Assembly (NCBI GenBank): GCA_045628045.1
Contig: JAZQOV010000011.1
Location: forward strand, 73,470-137,469
Direction: 5' to 3'
Source: Bacilli bacterium
GTDB lineage: Bacteria; Bacillota_I; Bacilli_A; RFN20; CAG-826
Length of the DNA stretch: 64,000 nucleotides
The notes under the pieces were generated by a model that was given only the letters and a program-made list of their open reading frames with translations, did not search any database and was not told the DNA's origin. Made by a program: the position numbers and the translations under genes. Below, piece after piece: positions 8,943 to 15,190 of this stretch. Numbering within the stretch: position 1 is the stretch's first letter; each line of letters begins with the position of its first letter.

Positions 8943-9614
8943 ATGAAAAAATTTAAAACATTATTTACTATCTTATGCCTCGGTGGTCTTTGGGGATTAC
9001 TTGAAGCTACACTTGGAACCTTACTTCATCTTCCAGTAATTCATGAAGTTGTTTTCTTTGGTTCTACAGCAGTTTTACTTCCAATTGCCTATTTAATTAC
9101 TGGCAGAGCATATAAAGTTACTGGCAGAGCCAGAGCAGCCTTATATGTTGGCTTAGTAGCAGCCGCTATTAAATCAGTAACATTTGCATTTGGACTTCCA
9201 GTTCAATATGTCATTAACCCAATGGTTTCTATTCTTTTAGAATCATCAGTTATGGCTGTTGCATTTAAAGTTAGCAAACCTGCAAATGTTTGTTCACCTA
9301 AATCATTCGTTACATTTGTTGTTGCATCTTTAGCATTTAGAGTCATTTATGTTGGCTATTCAATGGCTACAGCAGAACCATTCGGATCAGCATATTTAGT
9401 CGCTGGTTCAGTTATGTGGAATGCCATTATTGACTACGTTATTGTTGCTCTTGGAATCTCATGTATTTACGCTGTTATTTACATGCTTGTTGGAACACTC
9501 TTAACACGCAAAATATCCGTAAAATCCCTGGAAAAAGTCCAACATTTTGCCTATTCTCCAGTATTTTCTATTGTGATGATTGTAACTGCAGTTGTCGCAA
9601 CAATATTGTTATAA
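8943..9614 (+). CDS. Integral membrane protein, possibly an ECF-type substrate-binding component
   Basis: Probable start is ATG 8943 after a GCGGAG SD (the track starts at 8844). About 6 TM segments; GGLWGLLE motif. Confidence 0.55.
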   Translation: MKKFKTLFTILCLGGLWGLLEATLGTLLHLPVIHEVVFFGSTAVLLPIAYLITGRAYKVTGRARAALYVGLVAAAIKSVTFAFGLPVQYVINPMVSILLESSVMAVAFKVSKPANVCSPKSFVTFVVASLAFRVIYVGYSMATAEPFGSAYLVAGSVMWNAIIDYVIVALGISCIYAVIYMLVGTLLTRKISVKSLEKVQHFAYSPVFSIVMIVTAVVATILL

Positions 9615-9627
9615 TTTGAATTATATT

Positions 9628-9655
9628 TTGAAATTTATTTTCGCTGTGTTATATT
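9628..9655 (+). promoter_or_regulatory. SigA-type promoter, sRNA unit 1
   Basis: TTGAAA-16 nt-TATATT with extended -10 TG. Equivalent elements in unit 2 (10091-10118, TTGTAA) and unit 3 (10562-10589, TTGTTA). Confidence 0.7.
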
Positions 9656-9661
9656 ATTTGT

Positions 9662-9728
9662 GACGGGTACTGGTTTGTGCACGTAATAAAAGGATGTCAG
9701 GTTGCTGCCTGGCATCCTTTCTTCATTT
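9662..9728 (+). ncRNA. Putative antisense antitoxin sRNA 1
   Basis: Lies between the promoter and the terminator hairpin aaaggatgtcagg-ttgctg-cctggcatccttt. Its 5' part (9664-9677) is directly repeated at 9739-9752, so it is complementary to the convergent mRNA. Confidence 0.7.
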
Positions 9729-9754
9729 TAAGCAAAGGCGGGTACTGGTTTGCG

Positions 9755-9817
9755 CTAGTTGCTATTAAGCATTACGAGTAACACTAGGATAACAACTAGC
9801 ACCAGAAGGTACTCGAT
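9755..9817 (-). CDS. Putative type I toxin peptide 1 (20 aa, IEYLLVLVVILVLLVMLNSN; AUC start inferred)
   Basis: Hydrophobic frame conserved in all three units; GGAGG 9 nt upstream of ATC. Confidence 0.65.
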   Translation of the reverse strand: MEYLLVLVVILVLLVMLNSN

Positions 9818-9873
9818 AGCAAGTATCCTCCCTTCTGACCAAGCACCCGCGGTTGCCCGTAGATCTTGATCAT
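9796..9873 (-). CDS. 25-aa leader ORF 1 (MIKIYGQPRVLGQKGGYLLSSTFWC)
   Basis: GGAGG SD plus ATG; same length and stop position in all three units. Confidence 0.55.
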   Translation of the reverse strand: MIKIYGQPRVLGQKGGYLLSSTFWC

Positions 9874-9919
9874 ACCTGCCTCCATTTAAAACTATCCGAT
9901 TTTATTAATCGGCGAGCAC

Positions 9920-9954
9920 ATTATTTCACAACGTATATTCCTCTTGTCAAGAGG
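9920..9954 (-). promoter_or_regulatory. Promoter for toxin mRNA 1, with a palindrome over the -35
   Basis: TTGACA (9945-9950) with a weak -10 (TGAAAT or AATAAT); cctcttg-t-caagagg palindrome at 9940-9954. TTGACA is conserved at 10416-10421 and 10877-10882. Confidence 0.6.
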
Positions 9955-10123
9955 TCAAAAAAGTTACCTATATTAATATAGAAACTAAGATTTACTTATA
10001 ACTCTAGAACTATACTTATATTAATATTAGGTAAAAAATTTTTAATTTTTGTTTATATATTGTTTCTAGTACTGGTGAATTGTTTTTTCTTTGTAAATAG
10101 TTTTGAATGTGTTATATTATAAG

Positions 10124-10186
10124 CGATAGATACTTAGGCGCTATCAAATGAAAAGATATCAGGTTCCAGCCCGATATCTTTTTTTC
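10124..10186 (+). ncRNA. Putative antisense antitoxin sRNA 2
   Basis: Promoter upstream; 5' hairpin gatag..ctatc; terminator aaaagatatc..gatatctttttt; 10124-10137 repeated at 10197-10210. Confidence 0.7.
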
Positions 10187-10217
10187 GTTTTGAACTCGAT
10201 AGATACTTAGACGTTAG

Positions 10218-10289
10218 TTATTGCTTAGAATTATCTTGAATTATTTCAAGTAAAACAAGGACAATAACTAGCATAACCAGATACTGGAT
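10218..10289 (-). CDS. Putative toxin peptide 2 (23 aa, IQYLVMLVIVLVLLEIIQDNSKQ), frameshifted by a 13-nt insertion
   Basis: GGAGG-9 nt-ATC. Removing 10235-10247 restores a 20-aa peptide collinear with units 1 and 3. Confidence 0.55.
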   Translation of the reverse strand: MQYLVMLVIVLVLLEIIQDNSKQ

Positions 10290-10345
10290 GGCATACGCCC
10301 TCCTCTCTGACTAAGCACCCATCGAATTCTCTGGATCTTAGCCAT
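10268..10345 (-). CDS. 25-aa leader ORF 2 (MAKIQRIRWVLSQRGGRMPSSIWLC)
   Basis: GGAGGAG SD plus ATG; collinear with units 1 and 3. Confidence 0.55.
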   Translation of the reverse strand: MAKIQRIRWVLSQRGGRMPSSIWLC

Positions 10346-10594
10346 ATCTATCTCCTCCAAAACTATCCGATTCTATTAATCGGCGTGCATATTATTTCAC
10401 ACTGCATATTCCCCTTGTCAAGAGGTCAAAAAAGTTACCTATATTAATATAGAAACTAAGATTTACTTATAACTCTAGAACTATACTTATATTAATATTA
10501 GGTAAAAAATTTCTAATTTTTGTTTATGTATTGTTTCTAGTACTGGTGAATTGTTTTTTCTTTGTTAATACTTGTGAATGTGCTATATTATATT

Positions 10595-10660
10595 CGACAG
10601 GTACTTAGTAGACTAGTCAAATGAAAAGATATCAGGTTGCAGCCCGATATCTTTTTTTCA
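10595..10660 (+). ncRNA. Putative antisense antitoxin sRNA 3
   Basis: Promoter upstream; terminator aaaagatatc-aggttgcagccc-gatatctttttt; 18-nt 10598-10615 repeated exactly at 10673-10690. Confidence 0.7.
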
Positions 10661-10687
10661 TTTAGGACTCAGCAGGTACTTAGTAGA

Positions 10688-10750
10688 CTAATTATCTATC
10701 AGCATTAAAAGTAACACCAATATGATAATTAGTACAATAAGGTATTGGAT
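10688..10750 (-). CDS. Putative type I toxin peptide 3 (20 aa, IQYLIVLIIILVLLLMLIDN; AUC start inferred)
   Basis: GGAGG-9 nt-ATC; single TM-like helix. Confidence 0.65.
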   Translation of the reverse strand: MQYLIVLIIILVLLLMLIDN

Positions 10751-10806
10751 GTCATAAGACCTCCTCCCTGACTAAGCACCCTTTGAGCTCGTTGGATCTT
10801 AGCCAT
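10729..10806 (-). CDS. 25-aa leader ORF 3 (MAKIQRAQRVLSQGGGLMTSNTLLY)
   Basis: AGGAGG SD plus ATG; collinear with units 1 and 2. Confidence 0.55.
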   Translation of the reverse strand: MAKIQRAQRVLSQGGGLMTSNTLLY

Positions 10807-11089
10807 ACCTGCCTCCTGCTAAACTATCCGATTTTTAAAATCGGCGTGCATATTATTTCATAGGTTATATTCCCCTTGTCAAGAGGACTAAAAAGTTACC
10901 TTATATTAATATAACTCCATTGGATTTATTTACTAAGTAAAGATTTACTATATTAATAATAAGGTAAAAATTTAAAAAATTTGGTTCCTATTATATATTT
11001 AGTGCATAAAATCGAACTTTTTCTTTGAAAAGATTGTTTTAATGCGCTCGCTCGTGTATGATATTTATGCACATACATAGGAGAACTTA

Positions 11090-11659
11090 ATGGTTGGTAT
11101 TGTCCTTGCGGGTGGTTATTCATCCCGAGCCAAAGTTAATAAGCTCCTCCTGGAGGTAGATCGTAAACCTCTTATTCGTCATACAATTGACACTTTGAAA
11201 CCTTTCTGTAAAAAGGTTTTTGTTGTGACAGGAAAATATCATGATGAACTTAGTCAAGTTTTAGATGATGTTGAGATTGTTTGTAACAAAGATTTTGATT
11301 TAGGAATGTTTTCTAGCGTGCTTGCAGGAATTAATGCTGCTCTAGGCGAAGATGTTTTACTTATCCCAGGTGATATTTCTAATGTGGCTAAAACCACTAT
11401 TGAAGCTTTGCTTTACGGAAATAAAGACATCCGTATTCCTTCTTATGAAGGAATTACAGGACATCCTGTTTTTATTTCGAAGAAATATGTTGAACTTTTA
11501 TCTCATGAACCAGTTAGTTCCAGATTATGTGATTTTCTTAACGCGCACGAGTGTGCAAAGGAAGTTATCAGTGTAAATGACCCTTTTATCAATTTTGATA
11601 TTGATACGATTGAGGATTACAACAGATTTATTAATACAAGAAAGGAAGTTACTTTATGA
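11090..11659 (+). CDS. mocA: Molybdenum cofactor cytidylyltransferase (MocA/YgfJ family)
   Basis: VLAGGYSSR, GMFSSV, PGD, GHPV and DIDT motifs; adjacent to Mo hydroxylases. Confidence 0.85.
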   Translation: MVGIVLAGGYSSRAKVNKLLLEVDRKPLIRHTIDTLKPFCKKVFVVTGKYHDELSQVLDDVEIVCNKDFDLGMFSSVLAGINAALGEDVLLIPGDISNVAKTTIEALLYGNKDIRIPSYEGITGHPVFISKKYVELLSHEPVSSRLCDFLNAHECAKEVISVNDPFINFDIDTIEDYNRFINTRKEVTL

Positions 11660-12423
11660 AAGCAAAATCTTTCATTAGACCTTCTTCTTTAGAAGAGGCC
11701 TATAAGCTTGTTAAAGCTTCACCAAAGAACAAAATTGTCGCTGGTGGACTTTGGCTTAAAAAAGGAAACGCTGAAGCAGAAACTCTCATTGATATTTCAT
11801 CTCTTGGCCTAGACAAAATCTTAGACAAAAAAGAATACGTTGAAGTTGGCGCAATGGTTTCCCAAAGAGAACTTGAAAAATCTTCACTTGTTCCTGAAGT
11901 AATTAGAGAAGCAACTGCATTAGTTATGGGACCAGCATTCCGTAATATCGCGTCAGTTGGAGGATCAGTTTATGGAAAATATGGTTTTTCTGACATTGTC
12001 ACAGCATTACTTGTATACAAAGTAGAACTCGTTTTCTACCCAGAAGCAGTAATCACACTTGATGAATACGTCAAAAAACCTGGATTTTATGATGGAATTT
12101 TAACTCACATAAGAATTTACAAAGATAATCGCAAGGCTTTCTTTAAGAAAGTTGAAATTACTGCACTTGATTATCCAATTCTTAACGTTGCAGTTTCCGA
12201 AGGAAAAGAATGCAAAATTGTTATTGGTTCACGCCCACTTGTTGCATGCGTTTGCGAGCAAGCAAGCGCACTTGCTAGCAAAGGTGAAAAGGATTTTGAA
12301 AAGATCGCTGCTTTAGCAGTTGAAGAAACAAAATTCGGTGATTCAATCGCCACCAAAGGTGAATATAGAAAACAACTTGCACTCACTTATGTAAGACGTG
12401 GTCTTGAGGAGGTTAACAAATAA
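11656..12423 (+). CDS. Molybdenum hydroxylase FAD-binding subunit (YgfM-like)
   Basis: RPSSLEEAY, AGGLWL and FRNIASVGG motifs. Confidence 0.85.
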   Translation: MKAKSFIRPSSLEEAYKLVKASPKNKIVAGGLWLKKGNAEAETLIDISSLGLDKILDKKEYVEVGAMVSQRELEKSSLVPEVIREATALVMGPAFRNIASVGGSVYGKYGFSDIVTALLVYKVELVFYPEAVITLDEYVKKPGFYDGILTHIRIYKDNRKAFFKKVEITALDYPILNVAVSEGKECKIVIGSRPLVACVCEQASALASKGEKDFEKIAALAVEETKFGDSIATKGEYRKQLALTYVRRGLEEVNK

Positions 12424-12875
12424 TGTTAGTCAAATTCAATCTCAACGGACTTGATATCGAAGTCAATGTAAAACCAGGCGAGTATCTTTTAGATACACTT
12501 AGAGCTTATGGTGTTAAATCAGTCAAAAAAGGCTGTGATGGTTCCGCATGCGGAGTCTGTACAGTTCTTCTTGATGATAAACCAGTTTTATCTTGCTCAG
12601 TTTTAACTGCAAAAGTTGAAGGTCACAAAGTGACCACAGTTGAAGCAATTCAAGATGAAGCTGCTAAATTATCCGAATGCTTCTCTCGTGAAGGTGCAGA
12701 TCAGTGCGGCTTCTGTAATGCAGCATTCGCACTTATGGTGCACGCACTCAAAAAAGAAAATCCACATCCAACAGATGAGGAAATCAAAGATTATATGGTC
12801 GGAAACCTTTGCAGATGCACAGGTTATCAATCTCAACAAAAAGCAATTAAAGCTTATTTAGGAGGTAAGAAATAA
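12423..12875 (+). CDS. Molybdenum hydroxylase 2x[2Fe-2S] subunit
   Basis: GCDGSACGVC, QCGFC and NLCRCTGY. Confidence 0.92.
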   Translation: MLVKFNLNGLDIEVNVKPGEYLLDTLRAYGVKSVKKGCDGSACGVCTVLLDDKPVLSCSVLTAKVEGHKVTTVEAIQDEAAKLSECFSREGADQCGFCNAAFALMVHALKKENPHPTDEEIKDYMVGNLCRCTGYQSQQKAIKAYLGGKK

Positions 12876-15190
12876 TGAAAAAGAATTTCAAAGTTGTAAA
12901 CAACTTAACTCCTAGTGTTGATGGAAAAGGTCTTATGCAAGGTCGTGCTGTTTACACAGACGACATTGCTCCTCAAGGTGCTTTAATTGTTAAAATTTTA
13001 AGATCACCACATGCTTTCGCAAGAATTAAATCAATTGACGTTAGTGAAGCTGAAAAACTTCCTGGCGTTGCATGTATTTTAACCAAGGATAACGTCCCAC
13101 ACGTTTCATTTACACGTGCAGGACAAGGTTATCCTGAACCATCACCATACGATAAATTCATCTTGGATGAATATGTTCGTTATGTTGGTGATGAAGTTGC
13201 TGCAGTTGCAGCAGTTGATGAAGAAACTGCTTTAGCAGCAATGAAGCTCATCAAAGTTGATTATGAGGTTTTAAAACCAGTCCTCAACTTTGAAGAAGCT
13301 TTTGAAAACGAATCAGTTATCCACCCAGAAGATGGAATCCATGACATGTTCCCAATTGGTTTTGAACCAAAGAAGAATGTTGCAGCATCTTATGAGATGG
13401 AAGTTGGCAACGTCGAAGAAGAATTAAAGAAATCTGAAGTTGTTGTCGAAGACACATTCTATTCACAAGCACAAGCTCACGCTATGATCGAGCCACACAC
13501 TTGTAATGCACGCTTAGACGAGCACAATAGACTTGTTGTTTATTCCACAACTCAAACTCCATATCATATGCGTAGAATCATCTGCAAGACCTTAGGTCTT
13601 CCAGTTGATAGAGTTAGAGTCATTAAACCAAGAGTTGGTGGTGGCTTTGGTGGAAAACAAGCTTTCCATGGTGAAATGTTTGTCTCCCTTGTTACTTTAA
13701 GAACAAATAAACCTGCAAAATGTGTTTATACTCGTGAAGAAGTATTTGGTTGTTCTTATACGAGACACCCAATGAGAATCTCACTTAGAGTTGGTGCAAA
13801 TAAAGATGGTGTTATTAACGCAATCGATTGCCGCACTCTTTCAGATACAGGTGCTTATGGTGAACACGCTTTAACAGTCTTTATGATTGTTGGTTCTAAA
13901 GTTTTGCCACTTTATAACAAAGTTAAAGCTGTTAAATTCGGTGGAAGAGTTGTTTACACGAACCATGTATCTGCGGGCGCATATCGTGGTTATGGTGCTA
14001 TTCAAGGTAACTACGCAGTTGAATCCATCATTGATGAACTTGCGGAAAAGCTTCATATGGATCCAATTAAGCTTCGTGAAATTAACTCCATGAAGGAAAA
14101 AGAAACTTCCCCAATCTTTAAGATTATGGGTGAAGGTACCGAAGGTACAGAAATGATTATGGAAAGCTGCAAGCTTCCATATTGTATTAAACGTGGTCGT
14201 GAACTTATGGATTGGGACAAGAAATACCCAGTTAAGAAAGTTGGAGATCACAAAATTAGATCAGTTGGTTGCGCAATTGCCATGCAAGGTTCAGGAATTC
14301 CATTCTTAGATATGGGTTCTTGTACAATTAAACTTAATGATGGTGGCTCATACATGGTCACCGTTGGTGCTACTGATATTGGACAAGGCTCTGATACAGT
14401 TATTTCTCAAATTGTTGCAGAAGCTCTTCAAACAACAATGGACAAAGTCATTATCTATTCATCTGATACAGACTTAACTCCATACGATTGTGGTGCTTAC
14501 GCTTCTTCAACAACCTATGTTTCTGGTAACGCAGCATATAATGCTGCTTGCAAGATGAGAGAAAGACTTCTTAAAGAAGCTGCAGTTGAACTCAAAGTAA
14601 AACCAGATGAGGTTGAATTTGATGGAACAACATTTAAAGCTGGCAAGAAGTCAATCTCACTTGTTGATTTATCAACAGGAAGACTTTATAACAACAATAC
14701 ACATCAAATTGCTGTTACAGAATCTTATCATGGTCATGTTTCTCCACCTCCATTTATGGCAGCATTTGGAGAATTCGAATTTGACACAGAAACTTACGAA
14801 TACAAGATGATTAAGTACGTTACAGTTACTGACTGTGGTACAACAATTAACCCAGCATTGGCCAAAGGCCAAGTTGAAGGTGGTATTATCCAAGGTTATG
14901 GCATGGCTTCAAGTGAAGCGGTGCTTTATAGCTCAAATGGAAAACTACTTTCAAATACTTTTGATACTTATCACATTCCAACTGTCAAAGAAGTTGGTGA
15001 GCTTGTTACTGAATTTGCTGATTCATATGAACCAACAGGTCCATTTGGCGCAAAATCAGTTGGTGAAATTGGTATTGATACACCTCCAGCAGTACTCTGC
15101 AATGCAGTTTACAATGCTTTCGGTGTAAGAATTCATCATTTACCAATCACACCAGAAAAAATCTTTGAAACAATGAAGGCTAAAAAATAA
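12875..15190 (+). CDS. Molybdenum hydroxylase Moco-binding subunit (XdhD-like)
   Basis: GGGFGGK, AYRGYG, GQVEGG and KSVGE motifs. Confidence 0.9.
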   Translation: MKKNFKVVNNLTPSVDGKGLMQGRAVYTDDIAPQGALIVKILRSPHAFARIKSIDVSEAEKLPGVACILTKDNVPHVSFTRAGQGYPEPSPYDKFILDEYVRYVGDEVAAVAAVDEETALAAMKLIKVDYEVLKPVLNFEEAFENESVIHPEDGIHDMFPIGFEPKKNVAASYEMEVGNVEEELKKSEVVVEDTFYSQAQAHAMIEPHTCNARLDEHNRLVVYSTTQTPYHMRRIICKTLGLPVDRVRVIKPRVGGGFGGKQAFHGEMFVSLVTLRTNKPAKCVYTREEVFGCSYTRHPMRISLRVGANKDGVINAIDCRTLSDTGAYGEHALTVFMIVGSKVLPLYNKVKAVKFGGRVVYTNHVSAGAYRGYGAIQGNYAVESIIDELAEKLHMDPIKLREINSMKEKETSPIFKIMGEGTEGTEMIMESCKLPYCIKRGRELMDWDKKYPVKKVGDHKIRSVGCAIAMQGSGIPFLDMGSCTIKLNDGGSYMVTVGATDIGQGSDTVISQIVAEALQTTMDKVIIYSSDTDLTPYDCGAYASSTTYVSGNAAYNAACKMRERLLKEAAVELKVKPDEVEFDGTTFKAGKKSISLVDLSTGRLYNNNTHQIAVTESYHGHVSPPPFMAAFGEFEFDTETYEYKMIKYVTVTDCGTTINPALAKGQVEGGIIQGYGMASSEAVLYSSNGKLLSNTFDTYHIPTVKEVGELVTEFADSYEPTGPFGAKSVGEIGIDTPPAVLCNAVYNAFGVRIHHLPITPEKIFETMKAKK

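What the first reader, a model, noticed from the sequence alone, without database searches (positions are those of the whole stretch)
9664..10810. Copy-specific switch element with three alternative partners that covary
Seen: the mRNA element just after each toxin stop is ACCAGUACCCGC, CUAAGUAUCUAUCG or ACUAAGUACCUGC. It can pair with (a) a segment upstream of the second SD: GCGGGUGCUUGGU (9838-9850), CGAUGGGUGCUUAG (10311-10324) or GGGUGCUUAGU (10771-10781), using G-U wobbles; (b) the leader start region: GGCAGGUA (one mismatch), GAUAGAUA or GCAGGUA; and (c) the 5' end of its own sRNA, with perfect 14, 14 and 18 nt complementarity. The partners change together between copies. Inference: a multi-state RNA switch with insulated sRNA-mRNA specificity. 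The sRNA could repress or, by freeing (b), even activate translation.
Basis: partly seen in the sequence, partly recalled or inferred. Interest (0 to 1): 0.8.

Follow-up and report, generated by a model that had tools for sequence, protein, structure and literature searches.

The report
Two-state toxin mRNA switch family
Three tandem copies of a small module, with relatives in many uncultured gut Bacilli and a gut phage, encode a short hydrophobic, likely toxic peptide whose messenger RNA is predicted to flip between a closed and an open fold, and a copy-specific small RNA would lock it shut, which makes this a likely new family of RNA-controlled toxin-antitoxin systems.

Summary
Observation confirmed. 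All motifs lie where stated, and the sRNA/element repeats are 14, 14 and 18 nt. The pairings hold in 54 non-identical units: post-stop element X pairs with partner a in 53, with b in 41 and with the sRNA 5' end in 50, against 3 for a control, with compensatory changes. Best model: a type I toxin-antitoxin module. OFF fold = X:b plus P2; ON fold = X:a, which frees the leader start; leader ribosomes would then license peptide translation. The sRNA binds a toehold open only in the OFF fold and prevents ON. 5'-end binding is copy-specific, but the terminators of copies 2 and 3 are near-identical. Repression is favoured, activation not excluded. No Rfam, Pfam or NCBIfam family matches; it is neither par/Fst nor hok/Sok. 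Toxicity and expression are untested.

The parts
9628..9657 (+). copy 1 sRNA promoter (sigma-70 type, predicted)
   Evidence: 10 of 12 consensus matches; same position in all copies
9663..9728 (+). copy 1 predicted sRNA antitoxin; 5' 14-nt repeat (DR2, 9664-9677) complementary to X1; ends approximate
9687..9722 (.). copy 1 bidirectional intrinsic terminator shared by mRNA and sRNA
   Evidence: U tracts on both strands
9733..9752 (-). copy 1 switch element X (core 9738-9749)
9755..9817 (-). copy 1 hydrophobic 20-codon ORF, inferred ATC start (putative toxin)
9827..9831 (-). copy 1 SD2, 9 nt before the ATC, inside a predicted hairpin (-11.7 kcal/mol)
9837..9871 (-). copy 1 hairpin P2 (a' paired with a; a = 9838-9850)
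   Evidence: -15.4 kcal/mol
9796..9873 (-). copy 1 leader ORF (25 codons, overlaps the peptide ORF out of frame)
9871..9883 (-). copy 1 SD1, spacer and leader AUG (partner b)
9896..9912 (-). copy 1 5' hairpin of the mRNA
9920..9950 (-). copy 1 predicted mRNA promoter (-35 consensus, 19-nt spacer, extended -10)
   Evidence: read from sequence, not listed by the scan
10091..10120 (+). copy 2 sRNA promoter (predicted)
10124..10190 (+). copy 2 predicted sRNA; 14-nt repeat 10124-10137
10151..10182 (.). copy 2 bidirectional terminator
10192..10212 (-). copy 2 switch element X (core 10197-10210); 19-bp helix with a
10218..10289 (-). copy 2 hydrophobic 23-codon ORF, inferred ATC start
10299..10303 (-). 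copy 2 SD2 in a predicted hairpin
10309..10343 (-). copy 2 hairpin P2 (a = 10311-10324)
10268..10345 (-). copy 2 leader ORF (25 codons)
10343..10355 (-). copy 2 SD1, spacer and AUG (partner b)
10391..10421 (-). copy 2 predicted mRNA promoter; 5' hairpin at 10367-10383
10562..10591 (+). copy 3 sRNA promoter (predicted)
10597..10663 (+). copy 3 predicted sRNA; 18-nt repeat 10598-10615
10624..10655 (.). copy 3 bidirectional terminator
10666..10690 (-). copy 3 switch element X (core 10672-10684)
10688..10750 (-). copy 3 hydrophobic 20-codon ORF, inferred ATC start
10760..10764 (-). copy 3 SD2 in a predicted hairpin
10770..10804 (-). copy 3 hairpin P2 (a = 10771-10781)
10729..10806 (-). copy 3 leader ORF (25 codons)
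10804..10816 (-). copy 3 SD1, spacer and AUG (partner b)
10852..10882 (-). copy 3 predicted mRNA promoter; 5' hairpin at 10828-10844

Best explanation
Each of the three units is likely a type I toxin-antitoxin module in which an element just after the peptide's stop codon is predicted to toggle the mRNA between a closed and an open fold, and a convergent small RNA would bind that element and keep the mRNA shut. Steps: (1) While the mRNA is being made, hairpin P2 forms just behind the leader AUG and a second hairpin covers the peptide's SD (predicted; covariation shown for P2). (2) When element X emerges it pairs with SD1-AUG (b), giving the OFF fold X:b plus P2 (predicted; covariation shown). 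(3) X can instead invade P2 and pair with a over 17-20 bp, giving the ON fold, which frees the leader start (predicted; covariation shown). (4) A ribosome translating the leader would unzip X:a and the SD2 hairpin and so license initiation at the peptide's weak start, ATC in these copies (inferred from selection on the leader frame and by analogy with mok/hok). (5) The sRNA's 5' end, a duplicated copy of X read on the other strand, would bind the part of X left single-stranded in the OFF fold, probably helped by terminator loop kissing as in par. X is then unavailable for a, P2 stays closed, and the peptide is not made (inferred). (6) The peptide is likely a membrane toxin (inferred from hydrophobicity and layout; untested).
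For: Complementarity in 53, 41 and 50 of 54 units, control 3 of 54. Compensatory changes. Of 92 short MEYL-type ORFs, all 37 with a strong terminator plus direct repeat also carry SD1-start 45-70 nt upstream, against 4 of the other 55. The leader frame is open to 30 nt before the peptide start in 53 of 54 units, against 10 and 26 in the other frames, and it stops at -30 to -12 (at SD2) in 40 of 54. Opening the leader start costs 5.4 (ON) against 19.6 (OFF) kcal/mol on average, and less than opening the peptide start in 51 of 54. The column of the ATC holds ATG, GTG, TTG, CTG, ATT and ATA in homologues; one strain contig has ATT at copy 1. Peptide codons give pN/pS 0.41. A 5-7 nt toehold is open in OFF and buried in ON, and cognate binding is 2.7-7 kcal/mol stronger to OFF. 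Tandem arrays, variable copy number and phage carriage fit this class.
Against: Toxicity, sRNA existence and coupling are not shown. The direction of the sRNA effect depends on the model: the footprint is more closed in 29 and more open in 18 of 54 units, and SD1-AUG alone is more open in 36. P2 was significant in only 18 of 54 units by a duplex test, though 98.7% paired in the 7 close units. X:b is weak in some lineages (L003, L006, L018). The ON/OFF gap exceeds 4 kcal/mol in 23 of 54. The low openness of the +1 frame partly follows from ATG followed by A. Units are related, so counts overstate independence.
Confidence: 0.62

Rival explanations
1. Read-through model (hok-like maturation): a longer mRNA runs past the terminator, so the second repeat copy (DR2) pairs with b and shuts SD1 while X pairs with a. 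Termination or 3' trimming at the hairpin removes DR2 and gives the active form. The sRNA is then a plain antisense to the 3' end.
For: RNAalifold on an alignment that includes DR2 predicts b:DR2 and X:a together. b:DR2 is stronger than b:X in 9 of 48 units, including L003 and L006. All 21 isolated X/DR2 mismatches are transitions, and 8 of them are not wobble-tolerated in an sRNA:X duplex.
Against: b:X is stronger than b:DR2 in 39 of 48 units (means -15.3 and -11.2), a:X stronger than a:DR2 in 44 of 48, and U tracts in the mRNA direction are as long as in the sRNA direction. DR2 abuts a convergent -10 box.
Confidence: 0.13
2. The sRNA is an activator: by taking X away from b it frees SD1, and the leader ribosome melts P2, so peptide synthesis needs the sRNA.
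For: SD1-to-AUG is more open with sRNA bound in 36 of 54 units, and the whole footprint in 18 of 54. The sRNA prefers the OFF fold.
Against: The whole footprint is more closed in 3 of 3 window copies (by 3.7, 5.9 and 3.8 kcal/mol). The sRNA-bound fold is more closed than ON in 50 of 54. This model leaves the conserved 17-20 bp X:a helix without a purpose. Antitoxins with this layout repress (PMC7472228, passages).
Confidence: 0.1
3. The sRNA acts mainly by forming a long duplex over the shared terminator and triggering RNase III decay, as RatA and SR4 do. The X pairings only stabilise the mRNA or keep it quiet.
For: About 45 nt of perfect cis overlap; terminator duplex energies -70 to -82 kcal/mol. 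Weak Rfam RatA match, 24.2 bits against gathering 49.
Against: It does not explain the copy-specific 5' repeat kept in 50 of 54 units. Copies 2 and 3 would cross-react (-62.7 against -70). Both terminator hairpins would have to melt.
Confidence: 0.1
4. The peptide is a non-toxic small membrane regulator, or the ATC copies are decaying and no longer translated.
For: No family match. Near-cognate starts are concentrated in one clade (7 of the 8 such units). One relative (L002, first unit) is 5'-truncated and has a premature stop.
Against: Frame, length and hydrophobicity are kept with pN/pS 0.41. The regulatory pairings covary in the ATC clade.
Confidence: 0.05

Closest known systems
par (RNA I/RNA II, Fst) of Enterococcus faecalis pAD1 (PMC7472228, passages read)
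   Same: Convergent promoters, shared bidirectional terminator, a DNA direct repeat read in opposite directions that gives a second, copy-specific pairing site, and no cross-protection between paralogues.
   Different: In par the repeats cover the toxin SD and start codon. Here one repeat lies after the stop codon and would act at a distance through a fold switch. There is a leader ORF here. The peptide lacks the P/D/S/TxxxG motif (1 of 54).
hok/mok/Sok of plasmid R1 (PMC9841398 and PMC4147584, passages read) and ldr/rdl with ldrX
   Same: Toxin translation depends on an upstream leader ORF whose SD is gated by alternative long-range pairings, with a metastable hairpin during transcription. 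mok must be translated up to the hok SD, and here the leader stays open up to SD2 in 53 of 54 units.
   Different: Sok is antisense to the 5' leader; this sRNA is convergent and binds after the stop codon. hok needs 3' trimming to switch, whereas here both folds are predicted on one transcript. The peptide is about 20 aa, not 52. Different phylum.
bsrG/SR4 and txpA/RatA of Bacillus subtilis (PMC3834814, abstract and outline; PMC4147584, passage)
   Same: A convergent antitoxin binds the 3' part of the toxin mRNA. SR4 binding refolds the mRNA and lengthens the helix over the SD. MEYL-type peptides in Clostridia sit in a layout of this kind and score weakly with Rfam BsrG (5 of 20 loci, 19.5-24.7 bits, gathering 55).
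   Different: Those antitoxins overlap their target in cis over 100 nt or more, and I saw no leader ORF or duplicated target in the passages read. No Rfam gathering match here.

Membership tests
type I toxin-antitoxin (class) | short ORF for a small hydrophobic peptide on a 150-400 nt structured mRNA | tested here: met
   20-23 codons, GRAVY 1.1-2.5, mRNA about 230-245 nt; size ranges from PMC8594479 (parts 1-2 of 6 read)
type I toxin-antitoxin (class) | antisense RNA gene of 60-200 nt with promoter, terminator and complementarity to the mRNA | tested here: met
   (predicted from sequence)
type I toxin-antitoxin (class) | both RNAs expressed | tested here: inconclusive
   no RNA run available to test
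type I toxin-antitoxin (class) | peptide toxic and neutralised by the sRNA | not testable with these tools
   needs experiment
par/Fst | convergent genes with a shared bidirectional terminator | tested here: met
par/Fst | direct repeats DRa/DRb overlapping the toxin translation start | tested here: not met
   the repeat lies 3' of the stop codon
par/Fst | peptide with P/D/S/TxxxG motif, matching the Pfam Fst family | tested here: not met
   1 of 54 has the motif; no Pfam Fst hit among 13 members scanned
hok/Sok | leader ORF required for toxin translation | tested here: inconclusive
   leader present and under selection; requirement untested
hok/Sok | antitoxin antisense to the 5' leader; Hok/Gef-family peptide | tested here: not met
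   the sRNA is convergent and targets the 3' UTR; no Pfam hit
TxpA/RatA, BsrG/SR4 | Rfam RatA or BsrG match at gathering score; long cis overlap covering the target | tested here: not met
   RatA 24.2 against 49 bits; no gathering hit in 20 homologous loci; overlap limited to the terminator

The most novel reading that the evidence does not exclude
A new toxin-antitoxin family with a processing-free, bistable 3'-UTR switch that gates a leader ribosome about 130 nt away, in which the small RNA, born from a duplication of the switch element, acts as a licence (activator) and not as an antitoxin, and the peptide starts at near-cognate codons reachable only by coupling.
Probability: 0.12. Interest if true: 0.85.

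Novelty: new variant of a known kind. Interest (0 to 1): 0.66.

Why it matters
It would add a widespread type I toxin-antitoxin family from uncultured gut Bacilli and their phages that no library searched here describes, with a regulatory design not seen in the papers read: par-like repeat targeting, hok-like leader coupling, and a 3'-UTR element with two rival partners tuned to similar energies. Natural tandem copies with different X sequences give a ready-made orthogonal set for testing how antisense specificity diversifies, and a compact two-state riboregulator scaffold. Cultured carriers exist (Anaeroplasma bactoclasticum ATCC 27112, locus L157). The ATC/ATA/ATT/CTG starts also explain why gene callers miss these peptides.

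Tried and rejected
No RNA holder was listed for the stretch, so expression was not tested; four DNA runs were laid as contigs. Exact DNA patterns in metagenome and viral contigs found nothing real: none, one chance hit in an unrelated protein gene (L016, dropped), none. tblastn of the copy 1 peptide in plasmids and blastn of the array in phage records gave no match. The protein-homologue search and the back-translation search could not take a 20-residue query, so the large protein databases are unsearched. Rfam gave no gathering-score match in the window or in 40 homologous loci. Pfam, NCBIfam and PHROGs gave only weak composition-type matches (best: Syndecan E 0.0067, phrog_21118 E 0.0042; 13 of 18 members scanned). 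A conserved leader peptide was rejected: frame 0/1/2 in 9/20/25 of 54 units and stop from -40 to +65. A fixed frameshift from leader into peptide was rejected for the same reason. Internal starts (GTG or ATG at codon 6 in copies 1 and 2) were rejected because copy 3 has none and homologues start at the ATC column. Most weak hits (E above 1e-4) were read by eye, where looked at, as generic terminators. Literature searches found no description of this module. 'MEYL' did not occur in 8 supplementary files of PMC2887945; file 3 was not searched, and the table rows shown list identifiers rather than sequences, so this is weak. The T1TAdb database itself could not be searched.

Full report
Anatomy. 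Between an upstream membrane-protein gene (ends 9614) and a MobA-like NTP-transferase gene (starts 11090) lie three units of about 465 bp (82% column identity). On the minus strand each unit reads: promoter, 5' hairpin, SD1-AUG, hairpin P2, SD2 in a hairpin, a hydrophobic ORF of 20-23 codons, element X, a terminator with U tracts on both strands, a second copy of X (DR2) and a convergent promoter. The plus strand therefore predicts an sRNA of about 65 nt that begins in DR2 and ends at the shared terminator.

Relatives. The same genome holds two more units and an orphan sRNA copy. DNA and profile searches found clear units in 3 of 36 other genomes of the genus. A profile of the peptide hit 15 of 301 genomes of the order and 14 of 400 of the class; I read these loci by eye, and some were chance hits or other layouts. 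Of 92 short ORFs with enough flank, 37 had a strong terminator plus direct repeat, and all 37 had an SD-start 45-70 nt upstream, against 4 of the other 55. Named carriers of the full layout include Anaeroplasmataceae, Acholeplasmatales, Erysipelotrichaceae/Coprobacillaceae and unclassified Bacilli. Of 43 IMG/VR loci, 35 carry one peptide; the one unit folded (L245) has the full layout. The statistics below use 54 non-identical units: 18 from the first searches plus 38 (one added by hand for a bulged terminator), minus 2 duplicates. One truncated unit was dropped, and units seen only were not included. These units are related, and the start codons of the set are biased by the pattern.

The pairings are real. 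Cognate duplexes beat dinucleotide shuffles for X:a in 53, X:b in 41 and X:sRNA in 50 of 54 units; a control stretch did so in 3. X sequences differ completely between distant units while their partners follow. In seven close units, X:a shows two-sided changes at 10 of 20 pairs, X:b at 4 of 9 and P2 at 5 of 11, above all 500 shuffles and all slid controls. X:b is weak in some lineages, and P2 passed the duplex test in only 18 of 54.

First, partner a also pairs with a', the bases right behind the leader AUG (P2, -10 to -15 kcal/mol). This gives two exclusive folds: OFF (X:b plus P2) and ON (X:a). The minimum-energy fold is OFF for copies 1 and 3 and ON for copy 2; the gap is 4 kcal/mol or less in 31 of 54 units. 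Opening the leader's ribosome site costs on average 19.6 kcal/mol in OFF and 5.4 in ON, lower in ON for 54 of 54. The peptide's own site stays closed in every state, most of all in ON. Second, the leader ORF is under selection to be translated but not for its product: it is open to 30 nt before the peptide start in 53 of 54 units (other frames 10 and 26), stops at SD2 in 40, and has no fixed frame or length. This matches the finding that mok needs to be translated only up to the hok SD (PMC9841398, passages). Third, the peptide ORF has no canonical start in copies 1-3. ATC stands 9 nt after SD2, in the column where homologues have ATG (27), GTG (14), TTG (5), ATC (4), ATA (2), ATT (1) or CTG (1), and a strain contig has ATT at copy 1. 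The ORF shows pN/pS 0.41 among six close units. An ATT start is reported for E. faecalis ebpA (PMC4447247, search listing only), and non-AUG starts are a known damper of type I toxins (PMC8167048, passages).

The sRNA. In OFF, 5-7 nt at the 5' side of X are unpaired; in ON they are buried. Net binding of the sRNA 5' end is -9.3, -10.6 and -9.9 kcal/mol for cognate pairs and +6.3 to +12.9 for the six non-cognate pairs. The terminator arm is not insulated between copies 2 and 3. X and the terminator lie in the same order on both RNAs, so a full terminator duplex and the X duplex cannot both form in a one-to-one complex (geometric inference); loop kissing plus X pairing can, as described for par (PMC7472228, passages). 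With the sRNA site blocked, P2 re-forms and the leader footprint is more closed than in the free mRNA in all three window copies and in 29 of 54 units, but more open in 18; SD1-to-AUG alone is more open in 36. Repression by blocking the ON fold is thus the better reading, and activation remains possible. A read-through form in which DR2 pairs with b was suggested by RNAalifold, but b:X is the stronger duplex in 39 of 48 units (6 units without a detected -10 box left out).

Comparison. It works like a blend of par/Fst (repeat-derived target, shared terminator), hok/mok (leader coupling, rival long-range folds) and bsrG/SR4 (3' binding that closes the 5' end). It fails membership of each: the repeat lies after the stop codon, the PxxxG-type motif is in 1 of 54 peptides, and no Rfam gathering match or meaningful Pfam, NCBIfam or PHROG match was found. 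Similar MEYL-type peptides in Clostridia sit in a simpler layout, with 5'-3' end pairing and a cis-antisense RNA, that scores weakly with Rfam BsrG; the switch family may have arisen from such a layout by duplication of X (inference). [quoted passage not shown] Eight literature searches did not find this module; the library lacks most subscription papers, and one supplement of PMC2887945 could not be searched.

Verdict. It is a new variant of a known kind: a likely new type I toxin-antitoxin family with an unusual switch. Function, expression and the direction of control rest on prediction. Interest 0.66.

Noticed in passing
window about 9960-10035, 10430-10505, 10896-10967; L006, L010, L049, L059, L062, L063, L065: An AT-rich inverted repeat sits just upstream of the mRNA -35 box. 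In seven units of the genus it has 18-19 bp arms and a 31-bp spacer, in three different sequence types, above all 20 shuffles. It may be an operator or cruciform; it is not evident in most distant units.
   Followed up: partly
window 9820-9822, 10292-10294, 10753-10755 (minus strand): In the clade with near-cognate peptide starts, a canonical start codon in the leader frame lies 5 nt upstream of the ATC and 4 nt after SD2; possibly a decoy start.
   Followed up: partly
G000:C11:62770-63200 (L014) and G000:C2:55410-55710 (L015): Two more units in the same genome, with GTG and ATA starts. In L014 the leader is in frame with the peptide, and an orphan second sRNA copy follows.
   Followed up: yes
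run X4, record 17, laid on window 9550-11050: A 22.7-kb contig joins 9933 to 10866, so that strain carries one unit at this locus, not three.
   Followed up: partly
L084, L095 (G160); L085, L096, L104 (G303): Variant layouts with SD1-AUG and a MEYL/MQYL-type ORF, in which the leader-complementary element lies beyond the hairpin and no direct repeat is evident.
   Followed up: no
L127, L132-L134, L160, L163, L179, L183, L187, L190, L207, L209 and others: A large set of MEYL-type peptides in Clostridia with 5'-3' end pairing and a hairpin right after the stop; a probable unannotated type I toxin family with weak BsrG Rfam scores.
   Followed up: partly
L002:1-1140 and L008:1650 onward (G008:C2): An insertion carrying a long ORF (TnpB-like by eye, not tested) splits one unit in its 5' hairpin, and that unit's peptide ORF has a premature stop.
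   Followed up: no
window 11090-15190: MobA-like NTP transferase followed by ORFs that look like xanthine-dehydrogenase subunits; earlier notes describe such operons as anaerobic purine breakdown.
   Followed up: no
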